Shown: piece by piece, positions 2,575-16,582 of the stretch
Position numbering within the stretch: position 1 is the stretch's first letter
Layout of the letters: each line of letters starts with the position of its first letter
DNA from: Escherichia phage SUT_E520
Reading direction: 5' to 3' (one strand)
Sequence record: OQ990040
Length of the DNA stretch: 64,000 bases
The notes under the pieces: generated by a model
Told to the model about the DNA's origin: nothing
Database searches by the model: none
Seen by the model: only the letters and a program-made list of their open reading frames with translations
Made by a program: the position numbers and the translations under genes

Positions 2575-2580
2575 GCCTTA

Positions 2581-2619: not shown

Positions 2620-2643
2620 TGGTTCGAAGATTACGTGTAACTA

Positions 2644-3591
2644 TTACTTGTTACGCATATCCATGATCATTTGACCATCGTAGCCAGTACCTACCACAGT
2701 CTGAGGTACACCACCTTGATACTTCTGAGCACGGATCATTTCAACTTCCAGTTGTTTCCAACGAATCATTTCAGGAGTAATGGTACGTTGCAATGCGGCG
2801 TTAGCTTCAGCTTCTTTCTTAGCTGCGTACAGTTTAGCATCTGCGTCACGTTCATTAGCAATAGCTTGGTTGTTACGAGCTTCACGATCTGCTTCTGCTT
2901 GTTTAACTTTTTGCTGTGCTTCCTGTTCAACGCGAGCAAGTTCAGCTTTCGCAGCATTAACTTGCTCTTCACGAACTTTGGTATTCTGTACCTGTTCCAT
3001 GATTACTGGCGGCAAGGTAATATCCTGAAGGAATACCTGCTTAACTGTGTAACCATATGGGCGCGCATACTCTTCAACTTCCTGTTGAATTGCAGTTTGC
3101 AATTGAGCCTGAATTTTAGCATCAAATAAATCTTGTGCTTTAGGTACAGACTTACCAAACTCACGAATAGTAGACAGTAATTTTTCAGTTACATACTTGT
3201 CTAGTGCCTGATCCTGAGTACCTGCGTTAATACGGTTAATCGGTGCTTTAGAACCATCAAACTGCAACATAACAGTCAGGTCAACAGTGGATTTAAACTT
3301 ATCCTGGCTAGGAACCTGAAGTTTATCTAATTTTACAGCAATATCTTTTGTACTAAAAGTATCGAAAGATGCAAACGGGTTTACAAGATGGAAGCCCGGC
3401 AATACTGGATTAGGGTCTACTTTACCCAGGAATGTTTGGGTTTTAACCGTACCATCAGAAACAATAGTATATGAATTAAAAGCTAGGATTAAACCTGCTA
3501 AACCAACTACAGCACCAATACCCCAACGTTTAATAGTACGAATTACTTTCTGCTCAGAAGTCAGTTCTTTCATATTTTTAGTAGCAAACAT
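2644..3591 (-). CDS. SPFH/band-7 (prohibitin/HflKC-like) membrane protein
   Basis: N-terminal transmembrane segment (GIGAVVGLAGLILAF), band-7-like core, long charged coiled-coil tail (AKAELARVEQEAQQKVKQAEADREARNNQAI). Confidence 0.6.
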   Translation of the reverse strand: MFATKNMKELTSEQKVIRTIKRWGIGAVVGLAGLILAFNSYTIVSDGTVKTQTFLGKVDPNPVLPGFHLVNPFASFDTFSTKDIAVKLDKLQVPSQDKFKSTVDLTVMLQFDGSKAPINRINAGTQDQALDKYVTEKLLSTIREFGKSVPKAQDLFDAKIQAQLQTAIQQEVEEYARPYGYTVKQVFLQDITLPPVIMEQVQNTKVREEQVNAAKAELARVEQEAQQKVKQAEADREARNNQAIANERDADAKLYAAKKEAEANAALQRTITPEMIRWKQLEVEMIRAQKYQGGVPQTVVGTGYDGQMIMDMRNK

Positions 3592-3625
3592 ATATTTCCT
3601 TTGTTTTAGTTACAGTTAATAAAAT

Positions 3626-3700
3626 TGGCCGAGGTGACAGGATTCGAACCTGCATAAAGGAATTTAGAAGACTCCTGCCTCTCCCTTAGACTACACCCCG
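3626..3700 (-). tRNA. tRNA-Arg (anticodon UCU); CCA encoded
   Basis: Reverse complement folds as acceptor CGGGGTG/CACCTCG, anticodon stem GGAGT/ATTCC with loop CTTCTAA, T arm GCAGG-TTCGAAT-CCTGT, 3' GCCA. Confidence 0.75.
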
Positions 3701-4202
3701 TTTAAGTATTTTTAAGAACTCTCGTAAAAACTCTTAAAAATACAGACGATACCGGGAGAGTCATAAGTCTCACTCATTAAGTATTTCAAGACAAAATACA
3801 GTAACGTCTATTATTTTCCAGTTTAAGTCAGGGTGACTTAGTGGTTATGTCCTGCGGTATATTGAGGACTCGGTTAGGCTTGGGGTCATGACTTCCCACC
3901 TTTTGCTGCTACTCAACAGGAGTTATCGCGAATTACCTGTGCTATTGTGCACCATTAGTGACATCTCTCATGTCAGCATTTCCCACTTTGTGGATAGCTT
4001 GAAAAACTACTCCGATATGGAGAAAGAACTTCACTATCCTAGAATACCTTCTAAAGTTCTTCTTTAGCCTGGACATAGTTAAATCGTAATAAAACTATTC
4101 AGCAGACTGGTTGGTTAGTCTGGAACCAACTACCGCGTGGTTTAGGCAGTGCGCAACTAACCTCGGAAGCTTTTATGTTAAAAGCATCAGTTATCCAGTT
4201 CT

Positions 4203-4274
4203 TACCGACCGTAGGATTCGAACCTACATCTTCCACCAGTTACGGCTTGATAATACCAATTATACTAGGACGGC
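4203..4274 (-). tRNA. tRNA-like element, possibly degenerate; anticodon not resolved (CGU is one possible reading)
   Basis: Perfect T arm GTAGG-TTCGAAT-CCTAC and 6/7 acceptor pairing, but irregular D and anticodon arms and no encoded CCA. Confidence 0.35.
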
Positions 4275-4497
4275 AGTGTTACTACATAAGTGATTTCCAC
4301 ACCCCACTATTTATAAATCAGAGAAGAGTTTAGGGGAGAGGTTTCAGACGCCTCATTTTACACGTTCTAGCCACTAACCGGGATTGCCGCCCCCTGTGTA
4401 CTAGTTTTACAACTAACCCACCGACTCTATTCAATGCGCTCCGGTTGGGATTCTGCACTCAGCGTAATCGGCTCGCTGTTCCCTAATTTATGAATAT

Positions 4498-4526
4498 ATT
4501 ATACAGAATTTATAAGCATTTAGCAA
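4498..4526 (-). promoter_or_regulatory. sigma70-type early promoter (TTGCTA-17-TATAAT)
   Basis: Minus-strand hexamers at 17-nt spacing; transcribes leftward into the tRNA/noncoding region. Confidence 0.65.
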
Positions 4527-4534
4527 ATGAATTT

Positions 4535-4969
4535 TTAGAAAAATTCACTAGCAATCAAAGCAGTTGTTTTACCGTCATAACGTCCGGGAAATTCTGCCTT
4601 AATAGTTTTCATTAATAGAGCTTTGGTAATACCTGGGTTTAATTTAACCAGTTCTGCAAAATACTCACGAATCTGAACCTCAGTCAGTTGACTTGGCTGA
4701 TACTCTTGCAGCATGGAATAAAGCAGTTGCTCATAGTCTACATCAGTAGGAACTTCCATACCAACTTTAATAGCGCGTTGTTTTGCATTTTCTAGAGCCT
4801 TAATCTGAGCTTTCAGATAGGCTACGAACTCGGTTCGAGTAACAATGTCTTTATCAATACGTTGCAGATCACCAATCATGGTCTGAAGATTAAGTGCCCG
4901 TTCCTTATCACCGTGAGTACGTGCTAGACTAAGTAGTCCACGAAGGGTCATTAGAATATTTTCACCCAT
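4535..4969 (-). CDS. hypothetical protein
   Basis: 144-aa ORF; its ATG overlaps the stop of the upstream small ORF (TAATG). Confidence 0.6.
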   Translation of the reverse strand: MGENILMTLRGLLSLARTHGDKERALNLQTMIGDLQRIDKDIVTRTEFVAYLKAQIKALENAKQRAIKVGMEVPTDVDYEQLLYSMLQEYQPSQLTEVQIREYFAELVKLNPGITKALLMKTIKAEFPGRYDGKTTALIASEFF

Positions 4970-5139
4970 TATTTCATCCCCAATGCTTGGTTAAAAGATT
5001 GTTCTGTCATAACTGCTGAGACTTTGGCGAAATCAAACTTTTTAGGGTTCGTAGTTATTTCAGCAACGTTAGAAGTTTTAACAGTTTTCGTAGTACGAAT
5101 ACCGCGAGTGTTAACACCAATAATTACAACTGATTTCAT
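4969..5139 (-). CDS. hypothetical small protein (56 aa, MKSVVIIGVNTRGIRTTK...), absent from the ORF track
   Basis: ATG 8 nt after RBS GAGAGGAAG directly downstream of the 5171..5199 promoter; stop overlaps the next start. Confidence 0.5.
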   Translation of the reverse strand: MKSVVIIGVNTRGIRTTKTVKTSNVAEITTNPKKFDFAKVSAVMTEQSFNQALGMK

Positions 5140-5170
5140 ATTTCGCTTCCTCTCATTAATTTATGAAAGT

Positions 5171-5199
5171 ATTATACAGAAATTTAAGTAGCTAAGCAA
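5171..5199 (-). promoter_or_regulatory. sigma70-type early promoter (TTGCTT-17-TATAAT)
   Basis: Minus-strand hexamers at 17-nt spacing plus CATAAATTAATGAGAGG leader. Confidence 0.65.
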
Positions 5200-5207
5200 G
5201 TAAATTT

Positions 5208-5657
5208 TTAAGTTTTAGTGACAACAGGTTTATAGAATGTATGTCCCTTAATCTTAGTTGTTTTCTTAAACTTCTTTGTCCAGTAAGGTTTATCTTTACC
5301 ACTATGGAAGTATAGTGCTCCATATGTAGGATCTTGTGGTAAATCAACGTAGTATATCACTCTAGCTAAATTCTTAGCGGTTTGCCAAGCCTCATCAGTT
5401 TTATCAACTTTTGGTCTCTTAGATACCCAAGAGAACTGGTTAGACTGATATACTACTTTACAGTAGGAATCTGGGAATTTACCGGAGTTTACACGGTTTT
5501 TAGTAACATGTGCAATCGCCGTCATTCCCTTTATGCCCTCACCACGACTTTCGAAATAGATATTTTTAGCAATGCAATCTATTTCTTTTGCATCGTGCGA
5601 TGCCTGACTACTAAAGCTGAAGGTAAGGGCAGCTACTAAAAGCAAAGCTGCCTTCAT
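5208..5657 (-). CDS. secreted cell-wall hydrolase, SleB/CwlJ family, with signal peptide
   Basis: ORF track start is TTG; the ATG at MKAALLLVAALTFSFSSQA follows RBS AGGAGT; motifs NIYFESRGE, AIAHVTKNRV, VVYQSNQFSW. Confidence 0.65.
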   Translation of the reverse strand: MKAALLLVAALTFSFSSQASHDAKEIDCIAKNIYFESRGEGIKGMTAIAHVTKNRVNSGKFPDSYCKVVYQSNQFSWVSKRPKVDKTDEAWQTAKNLARVIYYVDLPQDPTYGALYFHSGKDKPYWTKKFKKTTKIKGHTFYKPVVTKT

Positions 5658-5662
5658 TCTTT

Positions 5663-5980
5663 TTACTCCTGCCAATCATATTCAACACGATTGGGATTTT
5701 CTTTATACCCTAAGTCAAGCAAATCATTACGCATATTTTGCTTAGCTACTGGGTTCGAGGTTACTAGTACCACTTTCTTTGGTCTCTGCCCAAATTCTAA
5801 GAGTAAACGAAGAATTTGATAACCTTCCATACCATCTACAGCCAAGTCATTATCCATATAAACGAAATGGCCGGTGGTATCAGTTTTATTCAGAAACTCT
5901 ACAGCGGCTTCTGGGGTTCGAATGATAATGTCCATTCCGTGAAGATTACGCACATCATCAATCAAAATATGAAAAGTCAT
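5663..5980 (-). CDS. stand-alone CheY-like response-regulator receiver domain protein
   Basis: 105 aa; ILIDD acidic pocket, FVYMDNDLAVDGMEGYQILRLL matching the phospho-Asp region, VLVTS (Thr/Ser), LGYKENP (Lys); no output domain. Confidence 0.55.
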   Translation of the reverse strand: MTFHILIDDVRNLHGMDIIIRTPEAAVEFLNKTDTTGHFVYMDNDLAVDGMEGYQILRLLLEFGQRPKKVVLVTSNPVAKQNMRNDLLDLGYKENPNRVEYDWQE

Positions 5981-6010
5981 AATAGCCTCGTTTCATCAAT
6001 TTAAAAATAT

Positions 6011-6039
6011 ATTATACAGATAACTTAGTAACTTAGTAA
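6011..6039 (-). promoter_or_regulatory. sigma70-type early promoter (TTACTA-17-TATAAT)
   Basis: Minus-strand hexamers at 17-nt spacing upstream of the receiver gene. Confidence 0.5.
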
Positions 6040-6430
6040 ATTAGCAAATACATTTTTAAATTGTGAAACTAGTAAACCGATAAACAGCCTAGAGGCGCCA
6101 CAGGCCATATCTTATGAGCCATGTACCTTTGATCTAGGGTTTGAATCATCAACGAATACTTTGCATCTTTTAGCTTTAGAAGTTTAGAAGTTTGAGTTCT
6201 TTAAACTTTTCAGCTTTCATACTTAAATGTTGATCTTTGAAGTTGTGTCGGTAATATCAACGACGCTTTGTTCTTACGTGTCAGCTTAAAAGGCTGGTGT
6301 AATAAACATAATCTCCAATAGATTATACTTTATAGTATGGTCAGCGGTCTTATTTAACCCCGTATTTCAACCGCTGCTGCGAGGTAAGATGCTTGGGCTT
6401 TCGTCTACCGATTTACTAGCTTTTAAATTA

Positions 6431-7069
6431 TTACTCTACTTCAATGAAGGTAGAGGCGTTAGACTCGGACAGAACAAAGTCAACATTTGTTGCAAAGTCC
6501 TGGTATTCCTCGTCATGCTGCTTAATCAACTTCTCCAGTTCCAGCGGATCAATCAAGAATGGAGTATTCTTGAGTTCCAGCAGGTTGAGTTGCATTTTAA
6601 CTTCATCTTCGGAAGTTTTCTTATCACGGGTAGCCATGCTATCCTGCAAACGCTCATATTTAGCATCAAACTGTGCTTTCTGCGTATTAAACTTAACCGT
6701 AGCGGCATGGAACTGCTTACGCATGTTAGCCAGCAGTTGAGCTTTAAGCTCCATAGAACGCTTAGCTTCAATTGCTTCCGCAACAGTCATTTTACGAGAA
6801 CCGATCTCAACGATTGTTTCTGCATTGCTCTTAATCAGAGCAGATTTAATACGATCACGCTGAGACATCATATCCAGCAGAGACTGGAAATCAGTCTTAA
6901 TACGAGTAGACAGATCAGCTACTTCGATTGCAGCGCCAACTACAACCTGGTTTTTATCCTTACCTTCACCAACAGCGATCAGAAGCTGCTGTTCAGTAGC
7001 TTTACGGATTTTAGCTTCCAGAGATTTGATAGTTGCTAGAGCGCGAGTTTTAGAAATACGAGTAGTCAT
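6431..7069 (-). CDS. hypothetical protein, predicted alpha-helical
   Basis: 212-aa ORF behind RBS AAGGAAACAAATA. Confidence 0.6.
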   Translation of the reverse strand: MTTRISKTRALATIKSLEAKIRKATEQQLLIAVGEGKDKNQVVVGAAIEVADLSTRIKTDFQSLLDMMSQRDRIKSALIKSNAETIVEIGSRKMTVAEAIEAKRSMELKAQLLANMRKQFHAATVKFNTQKAQFDAKYERLQDSMATRDKKTSEDEVKMQLNLLELKNTPFLIDPLELEKLIKQHDEEYQDFATNVDFVLSESNASTFIEVE

Positions 7070-7122
7070 TATTTGTTTCCTTATATGAGGTTTGAGATTT
7101 GAATTTGTTTAAAGTTGGTCTA

Positions 7123-7305
7123 TTACAGACCAATTGCCAGCAGAGTGCGCAGAACAGTATCGTTACTGTTATCAATTTTAGGATTAGCACGATTTAGCAG
7201 ATCAAAGATTTTCTGGACACCTGATTGACGTTCAGCCATACGACGGATACCCAGATTACGAGTAGCTTTCTTACCATTTTTACGAACATTTTTAGATACT
7301 GGCAT
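7123..7305 (-). CDS. hypothetical small basic protein
   Basis: 60-aa Lys/Arg-rich ORF behind RBS AAAAGGAAAACAAAT, first gene after the 7346..7374 promoter. Confidence 0.5.
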   Translation of the reverse strand: MPVSKNVRKNGKKATRNLGIRRMAERQSGVQKIFDLLNRANPKIDNSNDTVLRTLLAIGL

Positions 7306-7345
7306 ATTTGTTTTCCTTTTATTGTTTTCTCAAATTTATGAATAT

Positions 7346-7374
7346 ATTATACAGAATTTTGGAGCCGGAAGCAA
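7346..7374 (-). promoter_or_regulatory. sigma70-type early promoter (TTGCTT-17-TATAAT)
   Basis: Minus-strand hexamers at 17-nt spacing plus ATAAATTTGAGAAAAC leader. Confidence 0.65.
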
Positions 7375-7375
7375 A

Positions 7376-8077
7376 TCAAATTTTCATTTTTTCGATCATA
7401 GCTGCAACACAATAGCTTTCAACTAAGGCATCAAATGCAGGATCATGCTTAACCGGATAGATCCCATAACGAATGGTGTCCATCTTCTCCATTTTAGCTT
7501 TTGCCCAGCTAATACCTTCAGCCTCTAGATCTTTGTAACTATAATCAGCTTGCATCCAGAGATTACGAAGAGATCGAACATTGCCCAAATTCCAGAATTT
7601 CCACGGAACTACCTCTTCATTGGTTCCAGCATGGAATGTGTTTGCAGAGTAGATAGTCATATCAAACTCTGGGCCATTACCATAATACAAAGCATTTTCG
7701 CCTAGAGCCAACTCCATAATATTTTGAGCCATAGAGAAGGCAGCATAGTTTGAGCCAAATTTATTAGTGCAATGATGTTTACCATTTTGGAAGGCAATCA
7801 GTTTTGGATTACGTTCCTTCATAGCTTCCATAATGTGAATAGCAGACGGGCTATTTTTAGCTTGATCCATCCAGAATGCTAGAGTAGATGCTGTAACTTT
7901 AGCACCAGAATTAAGCTGATCTTGTACATCCAAAGTAACAAATACTAGATCAGGGTCTTTATCAATTCCATGCATAGCCACAAAAGCGAAAGAAGGCATT
8001 GCGATATGAGTAGTACCACAATCTCCTGGAGTTCCCAGAGATTCAATATCTAGCATACCAAATGGTTTTACTTTCAT
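7376..8077 (-). CDS. putative 3'-5' exonuclease (T4 DexA-like, DEDD fold)
   Basis: N-terminal MLDIESLGT resembles the DexA D-x-E motif (DFETMG); FWMDQAKNSPSA parallels the DexA WWKNQSPEA region. Confidence 0.45.
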   Translation of the reverse strand: MKVKPFGMLDIESLGTPGDCGTTHIAMPSFAFVAMHGIDKDPDLVFVTLDVQDQLNSGAKVTASTLAFWMDQAKNSPSAIHIMEAMKERNPKLIAFQNGKHHCTNKFGSNYAAFSMAQNIMELALGENALYYGNGPEFDMTIYSANTFHAGTNEEVVPWKFWNLGNVRSLRNLWMQADYSYKDLEAEGISWAKAKMEKMDTIRYGIYPVKHDPAFDALVESYCVAAMIEKMKI

Positions 8078-8105
8078 AAGTTATCCTTTATTGTGTAGAA
8101 AACTA

Positions 8106-8342
8106 TTAAAGAGCTGTCTCTTTAATAGACTCCCACTTCTTGGGGTCTTTAAAACCAGGGAGCATATCCTCACTGACATCCCAGTTCTCTTCCATAGAGA
8201 AGTCGGGCCATTCATCCCAACTACCTTCCAACTCTTCATAACAGGTATCCATTACCTCATGACTAGAAAGTCGTGTATAATCCCTAGCTGACTTATGGGT
8301 GGTAGCACGGTTAAAATCATTCTTTGCCACAAAATTACGCAT
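8106..8342 (-). CDS. hypothetical small acidic Trp-rich protein
   Basis: 78-aa ORF; C-terminal half is Asp/Glu/Trp-rich (EELEGSWDEWPDFSMEENWDVSEDM). Confidence 0.5.
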   Translation of the reverse strand: MRNFVAKNDFNRATTHKSARDYTRLSSHEVMDTCYEELEGSWDEWPDFSMEENWDVSEDMLPGFKDPKKWESIKETAL

Positions 8343-8357
8343 AGTTTCTCCAAATAA

Positions 8358-8380
8358 GAGGGGCTTTCGCCCCCTGATTT
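8358..8380. terminator. GC hairpin, intergenic terminator or attenuator
   Basis: GGGGC-TTTC-GCCCC hairpin flanked by A/T runs on both strands. Confidence 0.45.
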
Positions 8381-8383
8381 AAA

Positions 8384-8599
8384 TCACTTGCCCAGCAGTT
8401 TAAGGATATTTTCCATAATAGTTTGGGCAGATTTTTCACTCTTGTTGGTTTCAGCCAACTTTAAAGCGAGTTCTTCCTGCTGTTTCTGAATATCAGCTGC
8501 GATTTTTTGATCAGCCTCAATACGAGCTTGAAGCTCATCAGTGATAGTGGTAAAGGAAGCAACGATTTCAGTAACAGAACGTGGTTTCTTAGAGAACAT
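8384..8599 (-). CDS. hypothetical small helical protein
   Basis: 71-aa ORF behind RBS AAGGATATTTTTT. Confidence 0.5.
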   Translation of the reverse strand: MFSKKPRSVTEIVASFTTITDELQARIEADQKIAADIQKQQEELALKLAETNKSEKSAQTIMENILKLLGK

Positions 8600-8663
8600 A
8601 AAAAATATCCTTGATTAGTTAGAGAATTAGTGGATTGTAGGGGCTTCTGCCCCTATTTATCTA

Positions 8664-9179
8664 TTACTTCGCTTTACGCTTGCGAGCTGGTTTAGCAGAT
8701 TTACGAGCAGAATCACCAGTGAACTTAATGCCTACACCGTAACACAGAGCGCGAACATTATCTTTACTATACTCTACGCCAAAGATATTTGGCTTAACAG
8801 AACCAAACTGTCCACGAGTATCGCGCAATACATCTGCTGTTGGTTTACGCTTCTGGTTAACTGCCTTCTCGTAGTCTTTCATAGACATACCATTACGAGA
8901 GAACAATTCAGCCCCAGCGTTGAAACTCAAAGATACTGGGACAGATTTGTGGCCGTAATTTTCTACATACATAACCATTTTGTAGGATTTACGGGTGGCA
9001 TTTTTAGCTTTAGGCTTCTTACGAATCGGAGCCGGATTATTCAATGCTTGCGCAGCCTGAGCATCGGTAGGATGCTTACGCAGGTGACGTTCCAGACGAG
9101 CTTTGCGATTAGCCTCGGTCTGCGGGAAAGTTTTAACTGCCGGGGCTGCTTGAGTTTTTGCGTTTTTCTGCTTAGCCAT
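8664..9179 (-). CDS. hypothetical basic protein
   Basis: 171-aa Lys/Arg-rich ORF behind RBS AAAGGAAAACAAATA, first gene after the 9218..9246 promoter. Confidence 0.6.
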   Translation of the reverse strand: MAKQKNAKTQAAPAVKTFPQTEANRKARLERHLRKHPTDAQAAQALNNPAPIRKKPKAKNATRKSYKMVMYVENYGHKSVPVSLSFNAGAELFSRNGMSMKDYEKAVNQKRKPTADVLRDTRGQFGSVKPNIFGVEYSKDNVRALCYGVGIKFTGDSARKSAKPARKRKAK

Positions 9180-9217
9180 TATTTGTTTTCCTTTTTGTTT
9201 ATCAATTTATGAAGTAT

Positions 9218-9246
9218 ATTATACGAGAATTTGAAGCGTTTAGCAA
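9218..9246 (-). promoter_or_regulatory. sigma70-type early promoter (TTGCTA-17-TATAAT)
   Basis: Minus-strand hexamers at 17-nt spacing. Confidence 0.65.
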
Positions 9247-9254
9247 ATGAATTT

Positions 9255-9704
9255 TTAATTTATTAACTGTAAGCTTCTTTTAATTTCAGACCTTACTTGC
9301 ATCAAAAGGACTCCTAAAGTATTATCCCCGATGCCTCGGCAAACACCCCAATATGTATCTCCCCAGGTATTTCCTTCGATCAAAGTTGCATTTTCTGTTG
9401 CTAACAGTTTATCTCTTAAATCAGGAATTGCAAACTTTAATCGTAAAAGCTCTAGCATTACATCATCTTTTACTTTATCCCAGTCAGAGCGTAGGGTTAA
9501 TTTACGTCCTCTACGTTTAGCAACTCCTGCATTTAGGGAGCGGAGTACATGAGCTACATCATCTTTTTGGTCGGATTTCATAGCCTGAAAAGCATGTTCT
9601 ACAGTATCAGCATGCCATATCTCATTTAGATATTCGAAAGTAATTGGTGATAAATAAAAGTTAGATAAGAAACTATAAGTACCTTTAAATTCAGTAATCT
9701 TCAT
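9255..9704 (-). CDS. NADAR (YbiA-like) domain protein, candidate N-glycosidase / ADP-ribosyl hydrolase
   Basis: FLSNF, W...EHAFQA, LIEGNTWGDTYWG, GDNTLGVLLMQVR match the YbiA/NADAR pattern. Confidence 0.75.
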   Translation of the reverse strand: MKITEFKGTYSFLSNFYLSPITFEYLNEIWHADTVEHAFQAMKSDQKDDVAHVLRSLNAGVAKRRGRKLTLRSDWDKVKDDVMLELLRLKFAIPDLRDKLLATENATLIEGNTWGDTYWGVCRGIGDNTLGVLLMQVRSEIKRSLQLIN

Positions 9705-9985
9705 TTTTTACGCCCCGCATCTTTAGCCTCCTCGGCTGTATAGATATACTGATAAGCCCCTTTGGAGTAGGCTGGAGCAGTACACATTTTCTTACGCTCA
9801 ATCTCTTCTTGAGCTTTTCTTTCGCGTTCCGCTAATTCTTCGTCCAAATAAACTAAACGTTGTTCTGGAGGAGGTGGAAGACGTGTTTCTGGCTCGCCAA
9901 TATTAGCCTTTCTTATTTGACGAGGTGATTGTGCACGTTTTCTCAATGGTTTAAATCCTAATGAATTTGAGTTATAGATCCGCAT
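9701..9985 (-). CDS. hypothetical protein
   Basis: 94-aa ORF behind RBS GAGGAGGG; overlaps the NADAR start by 4 nt. Confidence 0.55.
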   Translation of the reverse strand: MRIYNSNSLGFKPLRKRAQSPRQIRKANIGEPETRLPPPPEQRLVYLDEELAERERKAQEEIERKKMCTAPAYSKGAYQYIYTAEEAKDAGRKK

Positions 9986-10012
9986 AAAGCCCTCCTCACT
10001 TTCAATACGAAT

Positions 10013-10041
10013 ATTATACTAAATTATAGGGCTTTAAGCAA
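10013..10041 (-). promoter_or_regulatory. sigma70-type early promoter (TTGCTT-17-TATAAT)
   Basis: Minus-strand hexamers at 17-nt spacing. Confidence 0.6.
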
Positions 10042-10062
10042 GAGAATTTTTTAATTTATTTA

Positions 10063-10539
10063 TCACATCTCAGCCATTTCAGCTTCAGTAATAACTGTAT
10101 TACATAAGGCGTCTACAGCCTCATTACCACTAATACCAGAATGTCCTTTAACCTTAATAAAGGTAGGGTTAGTATTATGAAAGTTGATATACTGCTGTGT
10201 TAATTTAAATGCTTCCTGCCAAAGTTCTAGATTAAGAGGAACTTCACCATCTGCTTTCTTCCAGCCTTTCCTTTGCCAAGAAAACATCCAACTTTCCATG
10301 CCATTTTTGCAATAAGCAGAGTCAGTATAGATAGCAATTGGTCTATTATCTTTTTTAACAGACCAACGTAGGGCTTCTACGATAGCTGTGAGTTCCATCT
10401 CATTATTTGTAGTTTTAGGATTATAACCAGATTTAGAACCTAAACGATCGTCGTTATCATCATAGACAATAAAACCCCAAGCACCTGGACCTGGATTAGA
10501 CTTACAAGCACCATCTGTGTAAATGTGGAAAACCGACAT
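10063..10539 (-). CDS. rnhA: ribonuclease HI
   Basis: IYTDGAC, ELTA, IYTDS, VKGHSGISGNEAVD motifs; start set at MSVFHIYTDG, giving ATGA overlap with the upstream gene. Confidence 0.8.
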   Translation of the reverse strand: MSVFHIYTDGACKSNPGPGAWGFIVYDDNDDRLGSKSGYNPKTTNNEMELTAIVEALRWSVKKDNRPIAIYTDSAYCKNGMESWMFSWQRKGWKKADGEVPLNLELWQEAFKLTQQYINFHNTNPTFIKVKGHSGISGNEAVDALCNTVITEAEMAEM

Positions 10540-10820
10540 TATACCTCCCAACTAATTTTAAGACCCATGTCTACAAAGGCGGCTTCTCGGTAGTATTGAG
10601 AGAGATGATACCCCTTATCCGATAAGGTTTTTAGTACCGATTTAGCGGCTCCTGGCATTTCTCTAGGATTATATAGCCACCTAGCGTAAGGATTATCTCG
10701 AATAATTACTTCTGTATTTCCAGACTTAGCAGCTTCTACAATCTTTTCTTCTATAAACTTTAGAAAAGCGGGTACTTCTGTTAATCCTGCAAGTTCTTGG
10801 GCTTCTTTGGCTGAAATCAT
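10539..10820 (-). CDS. hypothetical protein
   Basis: 93-aa ORF translationally coupled to its neighbours. Confidence 0.55.
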   Translation of the reverse strand: MISAKEAQELAGLTEVPAFLKFIEEKIVEAAKSGNTEVIIRDNPYARWLYNPREMPGAAKSVLKTLSDKGYHLSQYYREAAFVDMGLKISWEV

Positions 10821-11020
10821 GGCTTTTCACCTTCTGCTACACTTCTGGTTTTTGGTGGGATGGGAGGGTTAGGTTTTATAGCCGCTAATTCCCTATCTAA
10901 GAATTCCTCTATTGCTCTATCTACAAAGTAGTCATAGGGTAAATGATAATGTTCTGATAGAGTAAGAAGTTTGTGCTCTTGGCTTTCTGTTAAATAAACT
11001 TTCTTTCTAAAGAGTCCCAT
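10817..11020 (-). CDS. ribbon-helix-helix (CopG/Arc-like) DNA-binding protein
   Basis: 67 aa; KKVYLTESQEHKLLTLSEHYHLPYDYFVDRAIEEFLDRE fits a beta-strand plus two helices RHH layout. Confidence 0.5.
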   Translation of the reverse strand: MGLFRKKVYLTESQEHKLLTLSEHYHLPYDYFVDRAIEEFLDRELAAIKPNPPIPPKTRSVAEGEKP

Positions 11021-11046
11021 ATGTGTATCTCCAATCTATAAAATAT

Positions 11047-11075
11047 ATTATATTTAAATTTCACTAAATAAGCAA
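11047..11075 (-). promoter_or_regulatory. sigma70-type early promoter (TTGCTT-17-TATAAT)
   Basis: Minus-strand hexamers at 17-nt spacing. Confidence 0.6.
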
Positions 11076-11093
11076 ATGAAATTTAAATATAAT

Positions 11094-11113
11094 AGCCCCG
11101 AAGGGCTATTTAA
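11094..11113. terminator. GC hairpin terminator (AGCCC-CGAA-GGGCT)
   Basis: Short hairpin flanked by AT-rich runs between the RHH unit and thyA. Confidence 0.45.
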
Positions 11114-11114
11114 A

Positions 11115-11969
11115 TTACACAGTGAATGGATATGCAATAGCAGGATGGTGTTCGTAACCACGAACAGTAAAATCATCCTTATTTACCCAGGTCAATACAT
11201 CCTCCAGAGTTCGGATATTTGGATTGATTTCTAGAGTAGGAGGTGCAAAGGGTTCACGATCAAATTGCTTATGCTCCATCAAAACATTATACTGATCCTC
11301 ATAGATATGAAGATTGATAATCTTCTGGCGTGCAATCCCTGGTTTAAGGCCTGTAATCTGTGCCATTAATGCTAGAAGCGTATAGCACTGAACCATGTTA
11401 AATACTTGGCCTAACAGGAAGTCATTAGATCTCTGGAAAGAGTTCAGATATAATGTATCTCCCAAAATAGAGAACTGATGAGTATGCATACATGGACGTA
11501 AGCAACCCTTTGAGAACTCCCCCGGATTCCAGAAGGTTAGAATTTCCCCACGATCATCAATGCCCTTTTTCAGATTATGATAAATCTTGGCTAGTTGGTC
11601 AAACATAAGACCATCGGAATTAGTCCACTGACGTCCTTGAACACCATAGACTCGTCCCATATCATCCTCACCTTTACGGTATGGATTGTCTAGCCAAGCT
11701 AAGTTTTCATTTGCATTAGCATTCCATGTGTTAACACCAATAGCGCGGAATTGTGCTGCTGAATCATACCCACGTAGATACCCAATCATTTCCATTATTG
11801 CTTGTTTTGCAAACGCCTTACGAGTAGTAATAAGTGGGAATTCACCTGCACCTACGTTAAAAGTAAAATCTGCATCAATAATGGTGAGGCAACGAACCCC
11901 TGTTCTGGGATTCGTTACCCACTGACCTTCTGATAGAATACGTTTTCCAACTTCTATATACTGATCCAT
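11115..11969 (-). CDS. thyA: thymidylate synthase
   Basis: [10 protein letters not shown] active-site Cys motif and [13 protein letters not shown] motif; 284 aa. Confidence 0.9.
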
Positions 11970-12502
11970 TAATAAGTAACCAATTCCTGTACAAATCGCA
12001 GGCTGTTATCACTGTTTGCGCCAGTTGCGTAAACTAAACGAGTAGATTCATAGTTGTAATCTAGAATCGTATTATCCAGATATACATCTGCCTCTAGTTT
12101 TTGATTACTAAAGATTGTGGATACAAAAGCACTTTCAATATGACCATATTGATACATTTCTAGAAGAAGGTTAGCACCACCTAGAACTACTGTCTGCTGA
12201 TCTTTCAGAAATGTAGGTAAAGCATCCCCAATCTTAGAAATTGGGGTGTAAATATCATGTGTAATATCATCTGGCAGTGGACGATCAGCACGAATAAATA
12301 GGTCAGAAGCTCCAATCATACGTTCTCTAACGGCGTATGGAAGAGCTAAATAAGTACCCGCACCAATGATGATGTTATCTGGATTCAACACGTCCAGTTG
12401 AGAATAGAAAGCATCTAGTTCTTCTTTGAAGGAACCCCATGGAAGTTTACCGCGGAGGCCGAACTCCCCATTCGGCCCAACTGCATACATTGCTGTAATC
12501 AT
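11969..12502 (-). CDS. frd: dihydrofolate reductase
   Basis: [23 protein letters not shown]-terminal DHFR signature; adjacent to thyA. Confidence 0.8.
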
Positions 12503-13644
12503 AAGAAATCTCCAAATTCATTACCCAGATCTTTCAGAGTATCAGTAGAGGTCTCAGTTACCTGACCTACACGGTAGGCTGCACCAATCTGGATTTCTTG
12601 TGGAGCAGGCTGTAGAGAAGTAGTATCCAACCAGTTCATAATCCACGGAATAGGGTTTTTGGTGATTACTGGTAAATGACTAGGCCATTCTACACCGATG
12701 TGCATAAATGCATTACGTCCCACAAAATACAGATATTCTTCTAGAAGTTCTGCATTCAAGCCAATCAGACTACGACCTTTGAAAATGAAATGACCCCATT
12801 CAATTTCAGTTTTCAGAGTTTTCAGGAGCTGTGCTGGTGCTTTAGCCACTGCTTCATCTACCAGATCTTTGTCAAATTGCTGAAACATAATCTGGATGAT
12901 TGCTTTGGACATCTGAGTGTGCAGAGCTTCATCTTTAGCGATTAATTGCAGATTTTTAGCAATACCTTGCAGAATATCGTTCTCTGCTAATGCAAAGGTA
13001 CATGCAAAGGATGCGTAAAACTGCATTGCTTCCAGACCATAGATCGCAAAGTAAGCGTCTAATAGTTTAGCCTGAGTTTCACGTTTAACTTCAGGGAACT
13101 CAGTTTCTGGATATGTATTGTCGCCACGATGATCGCGTACTGCGATGAAATACTGACCTAACTGGTACAGTTCATCGAATAGTTCAACAGAATCAGCGAT
13201 GCGCGCGAATGCTTCTTGGTTTTTGGTTACAGAATCAATAAATTCTGCTGGATCAGTCAGCACATTACGAATAATATTGCTATAAGCACGACTATGCAGG
13301 TCTTCAAAATAGCTCCACTGTTTGAGCATACCTTCCAATTCTGGACGACTTACAAGCGGCATAATAGCTGCTTCAGGGGCACGACTAATAAAGGAATCAG
13401 TTTGAGTTTGCCATGCTAAGTTCAGGAGTGTAATTTCCTGAATTTCTCGTGGGAGATTAGGCCATTGTTTCTTATCTGCTTCCAGACTGATTTCAGTTTC
13501 AGTCCAAAATTGAGAGCGCTGCAGAAGTGCCAGACGTTCTAGTTCTGGATGTGCTACACGTACATAATCTGCGATACCGAGAGAATCTCCCAGGAAAAGG
13601 TCGGCGTTAGTATGATCCCAATTCAGGTTTAGTAAAGTAGTCAT
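12499..13644 (-). CDS. nrdB: ribonucleotide reductase class Ia small subunit
   Basis: Di-iron ligand motifs including KDEALHTQ; 381 aa; upstream of nrdA. Confidence 0.85.
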   Translation of the reverse strand: MTTLLNLNWDHTNADLFLGDSLGIADYVRVAHPELERLALLQRSQFWTETEISLEADKKQWPNLPREIQEITLLNLAWQTQTDSFISRAPEAAIMPLVSRPELEGMLKQWSYFEDLHSRAYSNIIRNVLTDPAEFIDSVTKNQEAFARIADSVELFDELYQLGQYFIAVRDHRGDNTYPETEFPEVKRETQAKLLDAYFAIYGLEAMQFYASFACTFALAENDILQGIAKNLQLIAKDEALHTQMSKAIIQIMFQQFDKDLVDEAVAKAPAQLLKTLKTEIEWGHFIFKGRSLIGLNAELLEEYLYFVGRNAFMHIGVEWPSHLPVITKNPIPWIMNWLDTTSLQPAPQEIQIGAAYRVGQVTETSTDTLKDLGNEFGDFL

Positions 13645-13675
13645 TGATTTTCCTCTTTCTCACTATTTCAGGAAT

Positions 13676-13704
13676 ATTATAGCAAATCTGGTAGCGATTA
13701 GCAA
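13676..13704 (-). promoter_or_regulatory. sigma70-type early promoter (TTGCTA-17-TATAAT) upstream of nrdB
   Basis: Minus-strand hexamers at 17-nt spacing. Confidence 0.6.
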
Positions 13705-13710
13705 GTAAAA

Positions 13711-14193
13711 TTATAAACTATCAAGCTCCAATAGTTTAGCATCGCGCCATTCTATAGCATCCTCTAATTCTTTGAATGTTTTAGTATGTTTTACACCTTT
13801 TCTAGCAATCTGGACTTGGTAAGATCCGCTTGCTTTTTGGTGTATATTCTTAATACCTAACTTATTGTCTTTGTGCGCTCCGACATTCTTTCCATTGTTA
13901 AATCTATCAGATGCTAATAAATTAATTGCTCTATTATCATGACGTATTCTGTTGTCATGGTCTACTTCTTTTGGAATGTATCCATGAGTGATATAGAATG
14001 CTAGGATATGTGCATAGTATTTTTTACCCCTTACTTGCATTACTATATACCCTGAGCATTTTTCTAGAGAACCTGCTTCTTTGCCAGCAAACTTAGTATT
14101 AAAGGATTTATCTTCTCTAGGTTTGTGGGTAAAGATTCCAGTTTCTGGATTATAGTCAAATAACCCAGCTATTTCTTTATATTTTTCTTCCAT
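13711..14193 (-). mobile_element. HNH homing endonuclease gene inserted between nrdA and nrdB
   Basis: 160-aa ORF with YYAHILAFYITHGYIPKEVDHDNRIRHDNRAINL HNH motif; weak RBS; free-standing between the RNR subunits. Confidence 0.7.
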
Positions 14194-14223
14194 AATCTAA
14201 AATTACAGCTATGATAGGCCTAA

Positions 14224-14247
14224 TAAAGGGGCTTTCGCCCCTTATTT
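14224..14247. terminator. GC hairpin terminator (AAGGGGC-TTTC-GCCCCTT)
   Basis: 7-bp stem flanked by T-runs on both strands. Confidence 0.55.
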
Positions 14248-14248
14248 A

Positions 14249-16582
14249 TTATAATTGACAACCACCGGATGCACATCCAGCAGCAGCTTCTTCACCTGCA
14301 CCTCCACCATTTGCAGTATTGAAGTTTGCATAGTAGAAAGTTTTCCACCCATACTTAACAGCAGTCATGAAATCACGAACTACTACTGGGCCAGGAATGA
14401 TTTCATTCTCAAACTTGGTGTAGTCATAGTACATATTCGTACTGATAGACTGACTGAAGAATTTCTGCATAGTTGCTACCCACTTGATCCACTCGATACG
14501 ATCTACATCATAAGCCAGTTTATAGCTCATTAACGTTTCCCAATCGGTTGCACCTGGAGCAATTGCAATTACTTTATTTACTGCACTACCCTTGATAGAT
14601 ACAATCTTACGAGGTGGTTCGATAGAGTTAGTAACACCTAACAGAACAGAAGAACTTTCTCCCGGCATCTGAGCAGTCAGAACAGAGTTACGCATACCAT
14701 ATTTCAGAATATCTGCACGCAGAGACTCCCAATCCATTTCTAGACCTACGGATACCAGTTCATCAACAGTTTTCTTGTACGTGTCGATTACCAGAATTCC
14801 TTTAGATGGTTTAGTACGATCAAACCACTCACATGCACCCTGTTCTTTAGCTAGGCGTACAGAGGCTTTATGCAGGAAGTAAGACAGTTTTTCAGCCTCA
14901 CGGTGAATCCAGTTACGAGCTTCAATACCTTCATAAGCCAGACCTTCTGCTGCCATTGCACCTGCTGCGTTCATCAGGCCAATACCAACATTACGACGTT
15001 TCTTAGCCGTATATTCCATAGTTGGGAACGGATAATCCTGAATTTCAATAATTGTATCAACGAATTTCAGAAGGATGTAGCAAGTTTTTTCCCACTCAGC
15101 CAGAGATTCCATGCGTCCAAGTACAACACCGCCTAAGTTACACAGAGATACTTCACCAATATCCTCCGGCTTCATTTGATCAAGTTGTTCTTTTGTTTTA
15201 TACAGTTCCGTGATATGATGGAACGGGCGTGTAGGCTGAGTAATTTCAACACAAAGGTTTGTCATACGGATCGGATCAAGGAAGTTACCGTGACGATTAG
15301 ATTCCCCGATGTGATGAGCATACATACGTCCTGTTTCCATTCGGATACGTAGCCAAGTATCTAGGATTTCTTTTGCAGAGACTTTAGGAGCTGCTGGAAC
15401 TGTTTTTCCTTCGTGGTCGATCTTTGTAAGAGATGCCACACGTTTCTCCGCTGCCACGTAGATTTCTTCAAATTTAGCCTCGTCATCACTATAAAACGCT
15501 TCATGAACTTCTGGAGCATAGAAGTATGACATTAGCGTAATATCTTCGTTTTTAAGATAACGTTTTAACAAAAGATTGTTAAAGCTCAGAGAATAGTCCA
15601 TCTTATCGATTTTATTCTCATCTGTAGCACGTTGTTGCTTAACCTGCATCAATTGAATGATTTCAGGGTCGAAGTACGTATAAGACACTGTGGCAGAACC
15701 ACCACGAGTTTGCTGAGTATTGGCCTTTACTGAGCGGTCAATGTGTCGATAATATGGCAGTTTTCCGGAATGCGGGAATGCCCCATTTCGCACCGGATCA
15801 GCAATTGATCGGCTTTCAAGATGATACCCGATTCCCGCTCTGGCTGCGACCATTTTGAAGACGATGTGCTCGGCGGTGTCGATTGAATCCAACGTGTCAG
15901 TGGAATCCACGAGGCAGCAACTAGCAAATCCACGGTCACTAGAGCGCAGACCAACCAGTGGCGGCGTAGGAATGTTGATTTTGTGGAGTGACATTGCGTT
16001 GTAGAGGTCGATTGCATCTAGAATTGTCCAGTTAGGTTGAGATAACATCGCCATTGCCATACCCATGTAGGCAAACTGCGGAGTTTCATAGATTTCACCA
16101 GTGGCTATGTTACGACGGGAATACTTATCAAAGAACTGTTTCAGCCCACCACTAGTAAAAAGACGGTCACGATCATGGTCGATAACCTGATTCAGAGCTT
16201 CAAATTGCTCATCGGTAATCCATGCACTCATGTCTTCCCATGCACCTACGCTAACCATATGGTCATGGAAGAAGCGCAGAGAAGGTGGTTCGAAGGAATC
16301 ATAGAGGCGTTTACGCATTTGCGCAAGACGTAATTCCTTTGCTGGCACATCATATGCTGGATTATCTTTGATAAGACTTTCAGCAGCTTTAATTAATGCA
16401 TCCATCAGAGTGTCGGAATCTACAACCCCTTTAGGCAGAGTTTTTTGAGCAGCCATAGTAATGGCTGACCAACTTACATCAACTGTTTTGCAACCATACT
16501 CCGCCCAACCATTGAGTTTTTCAGGAGCAAAGTCTTCTACAGTACCGTCACGTTTAATTACTTTTTCAATGCGATGGCTCAT
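14249..16582 (-). CDS. nrdA: ribonucleotide reductase class Ia large subunit
   Basis: ORF track 14249..16687; start moved to MSHRIEKVIKRDGTVEDF (ATP-cone) behind RBS AAAAGGAAAG, downstream of the terminator. Confidence 0.9.
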   Translation of the reverse strand: MSHRIEKVIKRDGTVEDFAPEKLNGWAEYGCKTVDVSWSAITMAAQKTLPKGVVDSDTLMDALIKAAESLIKDNPAYDVPAKELRLAQMRKRLYDSFEPPSLRFFHDHMVSVGAWEDMSAWITDEQFEALNQVIDHDRDRLFTSGGLKQFFDKYSRRNIATGEIYETPQFAYMGMAMAMLSQPNWTILDAIDLYNAMSLHKINIPTPPLVGLRSSDRGFASCCLVDSTDTLDSIDTAEHIVFKMVAARAGIGYHLESRSIADPVRNGAFPHSGKLPYYRHIDRSVKANTQQTRGGSATVSYTYFDPEIIQLMQVKQQRATDENKIDKMDYSLSFNNLLLKRYLKNEDITLMSYFYAPEVHEAFYSDDEAKFEEIYVAAEKRVASLTKIDHEGKTVPAAPKVSAKEILDTWLRIRMETGRMYAHHIGESNRHGNFLDPIRMTNLCVEITQPTRPFHHITELYKTKEQLDQMKPEDIGEVSLCNLGGVVLGRMESLAEWEKTCYILLKFVDTIIEIQDYPFPTMEYTAKKRRNVGIGLMNAAGAMAAEGLAYEGIEARNWIHREAEKLSYFLHKASVRLAKEQGACEWFDRTKPSKGILVIDTYKKTVDELVSVGLEMDWESLRADILKYGMRNSVLTAQMPGESSSVLLGVTNSIEPPRKIVSIKGSAVNKVIAIAPGATDWETLMSYKLAYDVDRIEWIKWVATMQKFFSQSISTNMYYDYTKFENEIIPGPVVVRDFMTAVKYGWKTFYYANFNTANGGGAGEEAAAGCASGGCQL

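What the first reader, a model, noticed from the sequence alone, without database searches (positions are those of the whole stretch)
9255..9704. NADAR (YbiA-like) domain protein, candidate counter-defence enzyme
Clear NADAR signature motifs are present. NADAR enzymes have been reported to hydrolyse ADP-ribose from guanine bases in DNA, so a phage copy is a plausible way to reverse DNA ADP-ribosylation by host DarT-like toxins; a nucleotide-salvage role is also possible. The downstream unit contains a ribbon-helix-helix regulator (10817..11020) and RNase H.
Basis: partly seen in the sequence, partly recalled or inferred. Interest (0 to 1): 0.65.

Follow-up and report, generated by a model that had tools for sequence, protein, structure and literature searches.

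The report
T5-like phage NADAR anti-DarTG1 enzyme

Summary
The ORF at 9255..9704 (minus strand, 149 aa) is real. It is a confident NADAR domain: Pfam PF08719 scores 78.8 bits against a cut-off of 35.1. The AlphaFold model has pLDDT 97.9, and its only significant PDB matches are E. coli YbiA and the Phytophthora NADAR-ADP-ribose complex. All residues reported as catalytic or ADP-ribose-binding are present: E36, K43, K63, R67, D74, W75, E110, D116 and W119.

The window is a Tequintavirus (T5-like phage). The protein is 148/149 identical to bas33_0070 of phage HildyBeyeler (Bas33). This is the "AdfN-Bas32" protein of Johannesman et al. 2025 (PMC11825919). That protein neutralises the DarT1 toxin in E. 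coli and restores plaquing of RB69, T5 and Bas25 on DarTG1 hosts, but does not help against DarTG2.

The single difference (E104 here, K104 in Bas33) lies at a variable position. T5 itself lacks the gene. Here it sits between the T5.090 and T5.089 homologues, translationally coupled to the former.

The counter-defence reading is therefore supported and already published. Two side claims are weaker. The RNase H and the "RHH" ORF lie upstream of the gene, not downstream. The RHH assignment is only plausible.

Novelty: already known. Interest: low.

The parts
9255..9704 (-). CDS of a 149-aa orphan NADAR ADP-ribosylglycohydrolase (an AdfN-Bas32 allele). Mapped active-site residues are E36, K43, K63, R67, D74, W75, K79, E110, D116 and W119. 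It has no N-terminal extension.
   Evidence: ORF found. Pfam NADAR 78.8 bits. AF2 model pLDDT 97.9. Foldseek matches to YbiA and 8bau. 148/149 identity to bas33_0070. Residue mapping.
9701..9985 (-). 94-aa ORF, the homologue of T5 gene T5.090 (phrog_4593, function unknown). Its stop codon overlaps the NADAR start (ATGA at 9701..9704), so the two genes are probably co-transcribed and translationally coupled. Its 3' end differs from that of T5.
   Evidence: T5 annotation. Alignment: homology to T5 resumes only at about 9740-9760. Upstream sequence.
9986..10062 (-). Intergenic region holding the likely promoter and ribosome-binding site of the T5.090-homologue/NADAR pair. It has TTGCTT (10041..10036), a 17-nt spacer, TATAAT (10018..10013) and the Shine-Dalgarno sequence GAGGAGG (9997..9991). 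It is nearly identical to the promoter annotated in T5 between rnh and T5.090.
   Evidence: Sequence printed. T5 'promoter' feature at record positions 46337-46411. Alignment with T5. The consensus scan did not list this site because the -35 hexamer matches only 3 of 6 positions.
9180..9254 (-). Intergenic region downstream of the NADAR gene, with a promoter-like site TTGCTA-17-TATAAT (9246..9218). It is homologous to T5 promoter P-H 207, which drives the next gene (DUF7022, the T5.089 homologue). The left edge of the NADAR insertion relative to T5 lies at about 9250-9255.
   Evidence: promoter-like site; T5 promoter P-H 207 annotation; alignment.

Best explanation
The gene encodes a small stand-alone NADAR-fold DNA ADP-ribosylglycohydrolase of the AdfN-Bas32 type ('anti-DarT factor NADAR'). 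The DarT1 toxin of the host DarTG1 system attaches ADP-ribose to the N2 of guanine in phage DNA and so blocks replication. The enzyme cleaves that N-glycosidic bond, releases ADP-ribose and restores a replicable template. ADP-ribose would be held by K43, R67, W75, K79, D116 and W119. The distal ribose would be positioned by E36 and E110, and K63 would help with the DNA substrate. The gene is an accessory early gene, inserted between the T5.090 and T5.089 homologues. It is probably transcribed from the conserved early promoter upstream of the T5.090 homologue and translated by coupling to it.

What is shown here: the ORF, the fold, the residues, the near-identity to Bas33 and the absence from T5. 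What is shown in the literature for the 148/149-identical protein: neutralisation of DarT1 in E. coli, rescue of RB69, T5 and Bas25 on DarTG1, and no rescue on DarTG2. What is inferred: that the E104 allele behaves the same, that the enzyme acts on guanine-ADP-ribose by the mechanism solved for other NADARs, that the gene is expressed early from the native locus, and that it is what protects this phage in nature.
For: - Pfam NADAR hit at E=7.2e-22, 78.8 bits against a cut-off of 35.1.
- AF2 model with pLDDT 97.9 and pTM 0.91. Its only significant PDB matches are YbiA 2b3w (E=2.5e-9, TM 0.82) and P. nicotianae NADAR with ADP-ribose, 8bau (E=1.9e-6, TM 0.78).
- Residues equivalent to P. nicotianae E43, K50, K75, R79, D86, W89, R93, E125, D130 and W133 are all present. 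E36, K43, E110, D116 and W119 are invariant in 53 homologues. The roles of these residues are taken from Schuller et al. 2023, PMC11543638.
- The protein is 148/149 identical to QXV80081.1 (bas33_0070) of phage HildyBeyeler, i.e. Bas33. The one difference, at position 104, is at a variable column (G in 40 and E in 9 of 53 homologues). An identical protein exists in Salmonella phage SP1a.
- PMC11825919 sections 11-12 report that Bas32 and Bas33 encode identical NADARs. This AdfN-Bas32 neutralises DarT1 without phage infection, restores RB69, T5 and Bas25 plaquing on DarTG1, and has no effect on DarTG2.
- T5, which lacks the gene, is one of the DarTG1-sensitive phages in that paper.
- There are 17 synonymous and 1 non-synonymous differences from Bas33.
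Against: - No experiment was done on this exact allele (E104).
- In the text I could read, AdfN-Bas32 was tested only by ectopic expression. I found no deletion of the gene in Bas32/Bas33 and no in-vitro assay described specifically for it. No supplementary files were held.
- Other NADARs (E. coli YbiA, T4 gp30.3) hydrolyse guanine-ADP-ribose in vitro yet fail to protect cells from DarT1 (PMC11125620). Fold and residues alone would therefore not have proved the in-vivo role.
- The gene sits beside nucleotide-metabolism genes (thy, frd, nrdAB), which is also compatible with a metabolic role.
- The promoter assignment rests on homology to a T5 annotation and a consensus-like sequence, not on transcript data.
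Confidence: 0.85

Rival explanations
1. Broad or different-target de-ADP-ribosylase. In its natural Salmonella and E. coli hosts the enzyme's main job would be to reverse ADP-ribosylation by toxins other than DarT1. Candidates are other guanine-specific ARTs such as YarT- or pierisin-like enzymes, cytidine ADP-ribosylation, or ADP-ribosylated RNA. DarT1 neutralisation would then be one instance of a wider activity.
For: NADARs of several families remove guanine-ADP-ribose from both DNA and RNA. The NADAR- and YbiA-type enzymes also remove cytidine-ADP-ribose (PMC12945103). The authors of PMC11825919 note that an enzymatic eraser works regardless of which toxin wrote the mark. The window protein has the Glu-type active site shared with YbiA- and NADAR-type enzymes. 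About 95 T5-like phage records, mostly from Salmonella and Escherichia, carry alleles at least 95% identical.
Against: Nothing was tested for this clade beyond DarT1 and DarT2. This reading extends the best explanation rather than replacing it. Among the substrates named in the papers read here, the one assigned to an E. coli anti-phage defence is DarT1-modified guanine (PMC12945103).
Confidence: 0.12
2. Housekeeping or nucleotide-salvage N-glycosidase. Like E. coli and plant YbiA/COG3236, the enzyme would hydrolyse reactive riboflavin-pathway intermediates or another small-molecule N-glycoside, as part of the phage nucleotide-metabolism cluster.
For: The best solved-structure match is YbiA. 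TIGR02464 'riboflavin biosynthesis intermediates N-glycosidase' is the top NCBIfam hit (E=2.9e-18). The gene lies close to thy, frd, nrdB and nrdA. Some database records annotate it 'GTP cyclohydrolase II' or 'YbiA'.
Against: The TIGR02464 score of 66.6 is below its cut-off of 73.7. No riboflavin genes appear in the stretch I annotated (about 1..21600), and there is no RibA/RibD fusion. T5 and most relatives do without the gene, so it is not part of the core metabolic cluster. The near-identical Bas32/33 protein neutralises a DNA ADP-ribosyltransferase in vivo, whereas the true housekeeping YbiA does not. The published tree does not place it in the YbiA group.
Confidence: 0.03

Closest known systems
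AdfN-Bas32: the NADAR of BASEL phages Bas32 and Bas33 (bas33_0070, QXV80081.1), Johannesman et al. 2025, Nat Commun, PMC11825919
   Same: It comes from the same genus (Tequintavirus). It occupies the same locus between the T5.090 and T5.089 homologues, with the same ATGA overlap. It has the same length and 148/149 identical residues (96% nucleotide identity), and the catalytic residues are identical.
   Different: There is one substitution, E104 here against K104, at a position that varies among homologues. The window phage also carries an extra 67-aa ORF between thy and the 93-aa ORF that Bas33 lacks.
AdfN-T4: T4 gp30.3, Pfam PF08010 Phage_30_3
   Same: It is also a phage-encoded orphan NADAR-superfamily enzyme of about 150 aa that counters DarTG1 by removing guanine ADP-ribose (PMC11825919).
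   Different: There is no BLASTP-detectable similarity (E=1.3), and it belongs to a different Pfam family. According to Schuller et al. 2023 and Johannesman et al. 2025, it has His in place of the conserved Glu, needs the T-even infection context for full activity, and does not rescue DarT1 toxicity on its own. AdfN-Bas32 does rescue it. The two probably represent independent acquisitions.
DarG1: the DarT1-associated NADAR antitoxin (BC4488 family), e.g. E. coli C7 and Geobacter lovleyi NADAR
   Same: It has the same fold and the same reaction, hydrolysis of N2-guanine ADP-ribose on DNA. It conserves the Glu/Lys pair (E88/K95 in E. coli C7, E36/K43 here) and the DNA-related Lys (K115, K63 here).
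   Different: The window gene has no adjacent DarT gene. It lacks the N-terminal beta-beta-alpha extension. Its catalytic acid is the superfamily Glu (E110) rather than the DarG1-specific Asp two residues earlier, where the window protein has L108.
E. coli YbiA (PDB 2b3w) and the plant COG3236 riboflavin-intermediate N-glycosidases
   Same: YbiA is the best structural and sequence match among solved structures (36% identity over the Foldseek alignment, TM 0.82). It has the same minimal core and a Glu-type active site.
   Different: The window protein scores below the equivalog cut-off. YbiA is chromosomal and sits in a LexA-controlled operon. It does not protect against DarT1 in vivo (PMC11125620). 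YbiA has Ala where the window protein has K63.

Membership tests
NADAR superfamily (Pfam PF08719) | Profile HMM match above the curated gathering score | tested here: met
   78.8 bits against a cut-off of 35.1, E=7.2e-22, covering profile positions 9-163 of 163.
NADAR superfamily (Pfam PF08719) | YbiA/NADAR alpha-helical core fold | tested here: met
   The AF2 model has pLDDT 97.9. The only significant Foldseek PDB hits are YbiA 2b3w (TM 0.82) and NADAR 8bau (TM 0.78).
NADAR superfamily (Pfam PF08719) | Conserved catalytic and ADP-ribose-binding residues (P. nicotianae E43, K50, R79, W89, E125, D130, W133) | tested here: met
   E36, K43, R67, W75, E110, D116 and W119 align to them. All of these except R67 (Arg in 37 of 53) are invariant or nearly invariant in 53 homologues. 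Residue roles come from PMC11543638.
AdfN (phage orphan anti-DarT1 NADAR), Bas32 type | Phage-encoded NADAR with no adjacent DarT toxin | tested here: met
   The window is a Tequintavirus. The neighbours are the T5.090 homologue and DUF7022, with no ART domain.
AdfN (phage orphan anti-DarT1 NADAR), Bas32 type | Sequence membership in the Bas32/Bas33 clade | tested here: met
   148/149 identity to bas33_0070 at the same locus.
AdfN (phage orphan anti-DarT1 NADAR), Bas32 type | Neutralises DarT1 toxicity and restores phage growth on DarTG1, but not on DarTG2 | not testable with these tools
   Reported for the K104 allele in PMC11825919. Not tested for this E104 allele.
AdfN (phage orphan anti-DarT1 NADAR), Bas32 type | Required by the phage itself for growth on DarTG1 hosts (native-context phenotype) | not testable with these tools
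   I found no deletion of the Bas32/33 gene in the text read, and no supplementary files were held.
AdfN-T4 type (Pfam PF08010 Phage_30_3) | Match to PF08010 or similarity to T4 gp30.3, with His replacing the conserved Glu | tested here: not met
   There is no PF08010 hit. BLASTP against gp30.3 gives E=1.3. The position holds Glu (E110).
DarG1 antitoxin (BC4488-type NADAR) | Encoded next to DarT1 | tested here: not met
   No ART gene is found in the neighbourhood.
DarG1 antitoxin (BC4488-type NADAR) | N-terminal beta-beta-alpha extension and a catalytic Asp (E. coli C7 D171) two residues before the superfamily Glu | tested here: not met
   The protein starts at the core: residue 9 aligns to YbiA residue 25, and the total length is 149 aa. 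Position 108 is Leu.
YbiA riboflavin-intermediate N-glycosidase (NCBIfam TIGR02464 equivalog domain) | Score above the curated cut-off | tested here: not met
   66.6 bits against a cut-off of 73.7.
YbiA riboflavin-intermediate N-glycosidase (NCBIfam TIGR02464 equivalog domain) | Fusion to or linkage with riboflavin genes (RibA/RibD) | tested here: not met
   It is a stand-alone 149-aa protein, and the neighbours are phage genes.
Ribbon-helix-helix regulator (side claim for 10817..11020) | HMM match to an RHH family, or a significant structural match | tested here: inconclusive
   There is no Pfam or NCBIfam hit even at E<=10. The single-sequence AF2 model (pLDDT 71) has two helices (12-24 and 29-48) after an extended N-terminus. 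The top Foldseek hits are almost all RHH proteins (ORF56, VapB, MatP, PutA, AmrZ, CopG, Arc), but none is better than E=0.23.

The most novel reading that the evidence does not exclude
The stretch between thy and the T5.089 homologue may be a variable 'accessory slot' of Markadamsvirinae that collects counter-defence genes. Between thy and the T5.089 homologue, T5 has only rnh and T5.090. Bas33 adds a 93-aa ORF and the NADAR. This window adds a further 67-aa RHH-like ORF. An Epseptimavirus (UTK0009) carries a 60%-identical NADAR in a different slot, directly after rnh. If so, the uncharacterised 93-aa (10539..10820) and 67-aa (10817..11020) ORFs could be new anti-defence factors. In addition, this Glu-type NADAR might erase ADP-ribose marks beyond DarT1's, such as cytidine or RNA adducts.
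Probability: 0.15. Interest if true: 0.4.

Novelty: already known. Interest (0 to 1): 0.15.

Why it matters
The result matters mainly for annotation. Public records label this gene 'hypothetical protein', 'swarming motility protein YbiA' or 'GTP cyclohydrolase II'. The evidence supports renaming it an AdfN-type anti-DarTG1 ADP-ribosylglycohydrolase.

It also gives a testable host-range prediction. Roughly one fifth of T5-like phage records carry the gene: about 95 records hold an allele at least 95% identical, against about 441 records matching the neighbourhood. These phages should resist DarTG1 but not DarTG2. That may be relevant when choosing Tequintaviruses for Salmonella or E. coli biocontrol. 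It adds no new biology beyond Johannesman et al. 2025.

Tried and rejected
- Riboflavin N-glycosidase or 'GTP cyclohydrolase II' reading: rejected. TIGR02464 scores below its cut-off, there is no riboflavin context, and the gene is dispensable in T5.
- Membership of the T4 gp30.3 family: rejected. It is a different Pfam family and BLASTP gives E=1.3.
- DarG1-type antitoxin: rejected. There is no DarT neighbour, no N-terminal extension and no DarG1-type Asp.
- The phmmer alignment to 8bau misaligns the E36 region. I re-derived the mapping with MAFFT --add. The 8bau numbers printed there after residue 86 are 2 too low, because --keeplength dropped a 2-residue insert. After correction they match the paper's numbering.
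- I looked for native-context data on Bas32/Bas33 (a gene deletion, or DarTG1 sensitivity of the phage). I found none in the main text, no supplements were held, and a literature search for AdfN together with T5-like terms found no further paper. The HIDEN-SEQ preprint concerns T4 only.
- The consensus promoter scan did not pick up the promoter upstream of the T5.090 homologue. That assignment rests on the T5 annotation and on reading the sequence.
- RHH claim: HMM searches were negative and the structural search was suggestive but not significant.

Full report
**The observation**

The window holds an ATG-initiated ORF at exactly 9255..9704 on the minus strand, encoding 149 aa. It matches Pfam NADAR (PF08719) end to end at E=7.2e-22. 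The score is 78.8 bits, more than twice the gathering score of 35.1. It also matches PHROG 1017, a family of unknown function. By sequence alone it finds the two kinds of solved NADAR structure: E. coli YbiA (2b3w, E=3e-15) and Phytophthora nicotianae NADAR (8bau, E=7e-7).

**Where the window comes from**

Region 8600..11100 is 100% identical to Escherichia phages SUT_E1520, SUT_E420 and T5_ev212. It matches 441 phage records, nearly all T5-like phages of Salmonella and Escherichia. T5_ev212 is classified as Demerecviridae; Markadamsvirinae; Tequintavirus.

On the minus strand the local gene order runs as follows:
- nrdB, frd and thy (11115..11969)
- a 67-aa ORF (10817..11020)
- a 93-aa ORF (10539..10820)
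- RNase H (10063..10551; PF00075, E=2.9e-32)
- a 94-aa ORF (9701..9985)
- the NADAR gene (9255..9704)
- DUF7022 (8664..9179)

**Fold and active site**

One homologue search returned 1038 relatives, all carrying PF08719. An alignment of 53 of them, at 48-60% identity, shows which positions are conserved:
- Invariant: F6, L13, S14, N15, E36, Q40, K43, E110, W114, D116, W119 and G120, among others.
- Nearly invariant: K63, G66, R72 and W75.

AlphaFold2 run on this alignment gives a very confident model, with pLDDT 97.9 and pTM 0.91. Its only significant Foldseek matches in the PDB are YbiA (E=2.5e-9, TM 0.82, 36% identity) and the P. nicotianae NADAR-ADP-ribose complex (E=1.9e-6, TM 0.78).

Schuller et al. 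2023 (PMC11543638) define the residues that bind ADP-ribose and carry out hydrolysis in P. nicotianae NADAR: E43, K50, K75, R79, D86, W89, R93, E125, D130 and W133. They show by mutagenesis of the E. coli C7 antitoxin that the equivalents of E43, K50 and E125 are needed for guanine de-ADP-ribosylation. The equivalent of K75 is needed for protection in vivo.

Mapping the window protein onto 8bau and YbiA gives E36, K43, K63, R67, D74, W75, K79, E110, D116 and W119. In one search, the 8bau numbers after residue 86 are 2 too low because MAFFT dropped a two-residue insert. After correction they agree with the paper's numbering.

The residue at the key acid position is Glu. This is the YbiA/NADAR-type state. 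It is not the Asp-two-residues-earlier arrangement of DarT1-linked antitoxins (position 108 is Leu), and not the His of T4-like phage NADARs. The protein also lacks the N-terminal extension of the DarT1-linked antitoxins, since it starts at the core.

**The decisive comparison**

A tblastn search of phage genomes finds 95 records with an allele at least 95% identical. One of them is Escherichia phage HildyBeyeler. Its locus tags (bas33_xxxx) identify it as BASEL phage Bas33. The matching gene is bas33_0070 (QXV80081.1), annotated as hypothetical.

The two proteins are 148/149 identical, differing only at position 104 (E here, K in Bas33). At the nucleotide level there are 17 synonymous and 1 non-synonymous differences, the signature of a gene under purifying selection. 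Position 104 is variable among homologues (G in 40 and E in 9 of 53). A protein identical to the window's exists in Salmonella phage SP1a.

Johannesman et al. 2025 (Nat Commun, PMC11825919) report the following:
- Bas32 and Bas33, "Markadamsvirinae closely related to T5", encode identical NADAR proteins, which they name AdfN-Bas32.
- This protein neutralises the DarT1 toxin in E. coli without phage infection.
- Its ectopic expression restores RB69, T5 and Bas25 to full titre on DarTG1 hosts.
- It does nothing against the thymidine-modifying DarTG2.

**Anatomy of the locus**

Phage T5 itself lacks the gene. T5.089 (DUF7022) is followed directly by promoter P-H 207, then T5.090, another promoter and rnh. 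Aligning the window, T5 and Bas33 shows the following:
- The window and T5 are co-linear up to about 9250-9255, just past the homologue of P-H 207. The scan finds this as TTGCTA-17-TATAAT at 9246..9218.
- The two sequences become co-linear again only at about 9740-9760, inside the 3' end of the T5.090 homologue.
- The insertion thus brought the NADAR ORF and remodelled the end of the upstream gene. The upstream stop now overlaps the NADAR start (ATGA at 9701..9704).
- The intergenic region upstream of the T5.090 homologue (9986..10062) is nearly identical to the T5 region annotated as a promoter. It reads TTGCTT-17-TATAAT followed by GAGGAGG.

I infer that the NADAR gene is an early gene, co-transcribed and translationally coupled with the T5.090 homologue. 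No transcript data support this.

**Relation to other NADARs**

- T4 gp30.3 (AdfN-T4) belongs to a different Pfam family (PF08010). It shows no BLASTP similarity to the window protein (E=1.3). This agrees with the paper's conclusion that phages acquired NADARs several times.
- The riboflavin N-glycosidase equivalog model TIGR02464 is the best NCBIfam hit, but it falls below its cut-off (66.6 against 73.7 bits).
- E. coli YbiA hydrolyses guanine-ADP-ribose in vitro but does not protect cells from DarT1 (PMC11125620). Calling this protein "YbiA-like" is acceptable structurally but misleading functionally.
- The published tree places AdfN-Bas32 next to archaeal NADARs.

**Rival explanations**

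A purely metabolic role is unlikely, for the reasons given above and because most T5-like phages lack the gene.

A broader eraser role remains open. NADAR- and YbiA-type enzymes also remove cytidine-ADP-ribose, and NADARs of all families remove RNA guanine-ADP-ribose (PMC12945103). This would extend the known function rather than contradict it.

The main gap is native-context evidence. I found no report of a deletion of the gene in a T5-like phage, and no assay of the E104 allele.

**Side claims**

The 67-aa ORF (10817..11020) has no Pfam or NCBIfam match even at E<=10. A single-sequence AF2 model of moderate confidence (pLDDT 71) shows an extended N-terminus followed by two helices. The Foldseek list is dominated by ribbon-helix-helix proteins such as ORF56/CopG, VapB, MatP, PutA, AmrZ, Arc and NikR, but none is better than E=0.23. 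RHH is plausible but not established.

That ORF is absent from Bas33 and from most relatives, which cover only 89% of the query. T5 lacks both it and the 93-aa ORF.

**Verdict**

This is a real gene, correctly recognised and correctly interpreted. It is an allele of an already characterised phage counter-defence enzyme. Novelty: already known. Interest is low, apart from correcting annotations and predicting DarTG1 resistance in the subset of T5-like phages that carry it.

Noticed in passing
window 9180..11114, compared with L003 (T5), L002 (Bas33) and L004 (Salmonella phage UTK0009): The thy-to-DUF7022 stretch varies among Markadamsvirinae. Besides rnh, T5 has only T5.090 there. Bas33 adds a 93-aa ORF and the NADAR. 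The window adds a further 67-aa ORF. The Epseptimavirus UTK0009 carries a 60%-identical NADAR (PF08719, 85 bits) in a different slot, directly after rnh and before the T5.090-like gene. NADAR genes therefore seem to have entered or moved within this neighbourhood more than once.
   Followed up: partly
window 10817..11020 (-) and 10539..10820 (-): These are two small accessory ORFs of unknown function (phrog_17630 and phrog_5321), with overlapping stop and start codons. The 67-aa ORF looks RHH-like by predicted structure but has no significant match. Both are absent from T5.
   Followed up: partly
window 20789..21604 (+): A 271-aa Sir2-family protein (PF02146, E=4e-24). It is a second NAD+/ADP-ribose-related enzyme in the same phage window. 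I did not examine its role or its relation to the NADAR.
   Followed up: no
window 13711..14193 (-): A 160-aa HNH endonuclease ORF (PF13392, E=1.6e-8) lies between nrdB and nrdA, as with hegH in T5. The annotation of T5_ev212 shows no gene in that gap, so it is probably a mobile homing endonuclease.
   Followed up: no
window 5663..5980 (-): A 105-aa ORF matches the cyclic-phosphate processing receiver domain (cREC_REC, PF20274, E=3.8e-15), next to a cell-wall hydrolase ORF (5208..5675).
   Followed up: no
window 2..90 (-) and 3626..3700 (-): tRNA-Ser (GCT) and tRNA-Arg (TCT) genes, part of the T5-type tRNA region.
   Followed up: no
phage database records OR848833.1 (Listeria phage LM 4-14-1, 3468 bp) and OQ031075.1 (Klebsiella phage KPP2018, 137988 bp): Both hold a NADAR 98.7% identical to this Tequintavirus gene. 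For a 3.5-kb 'Listeria phage' record this looks like a contaminating T5-like fragment or a mislabelled record.
   Followed up: no
NCBIfam hit of window 9255..9704: There is a weak match (44.8 bits, far below the cut-off of 240) to NF053876 'DS32_2_antiphage, NADAR family anti-phage protein'. NADAR domains are thus also annotated on the defence side of the conflict.
   Followed up: no
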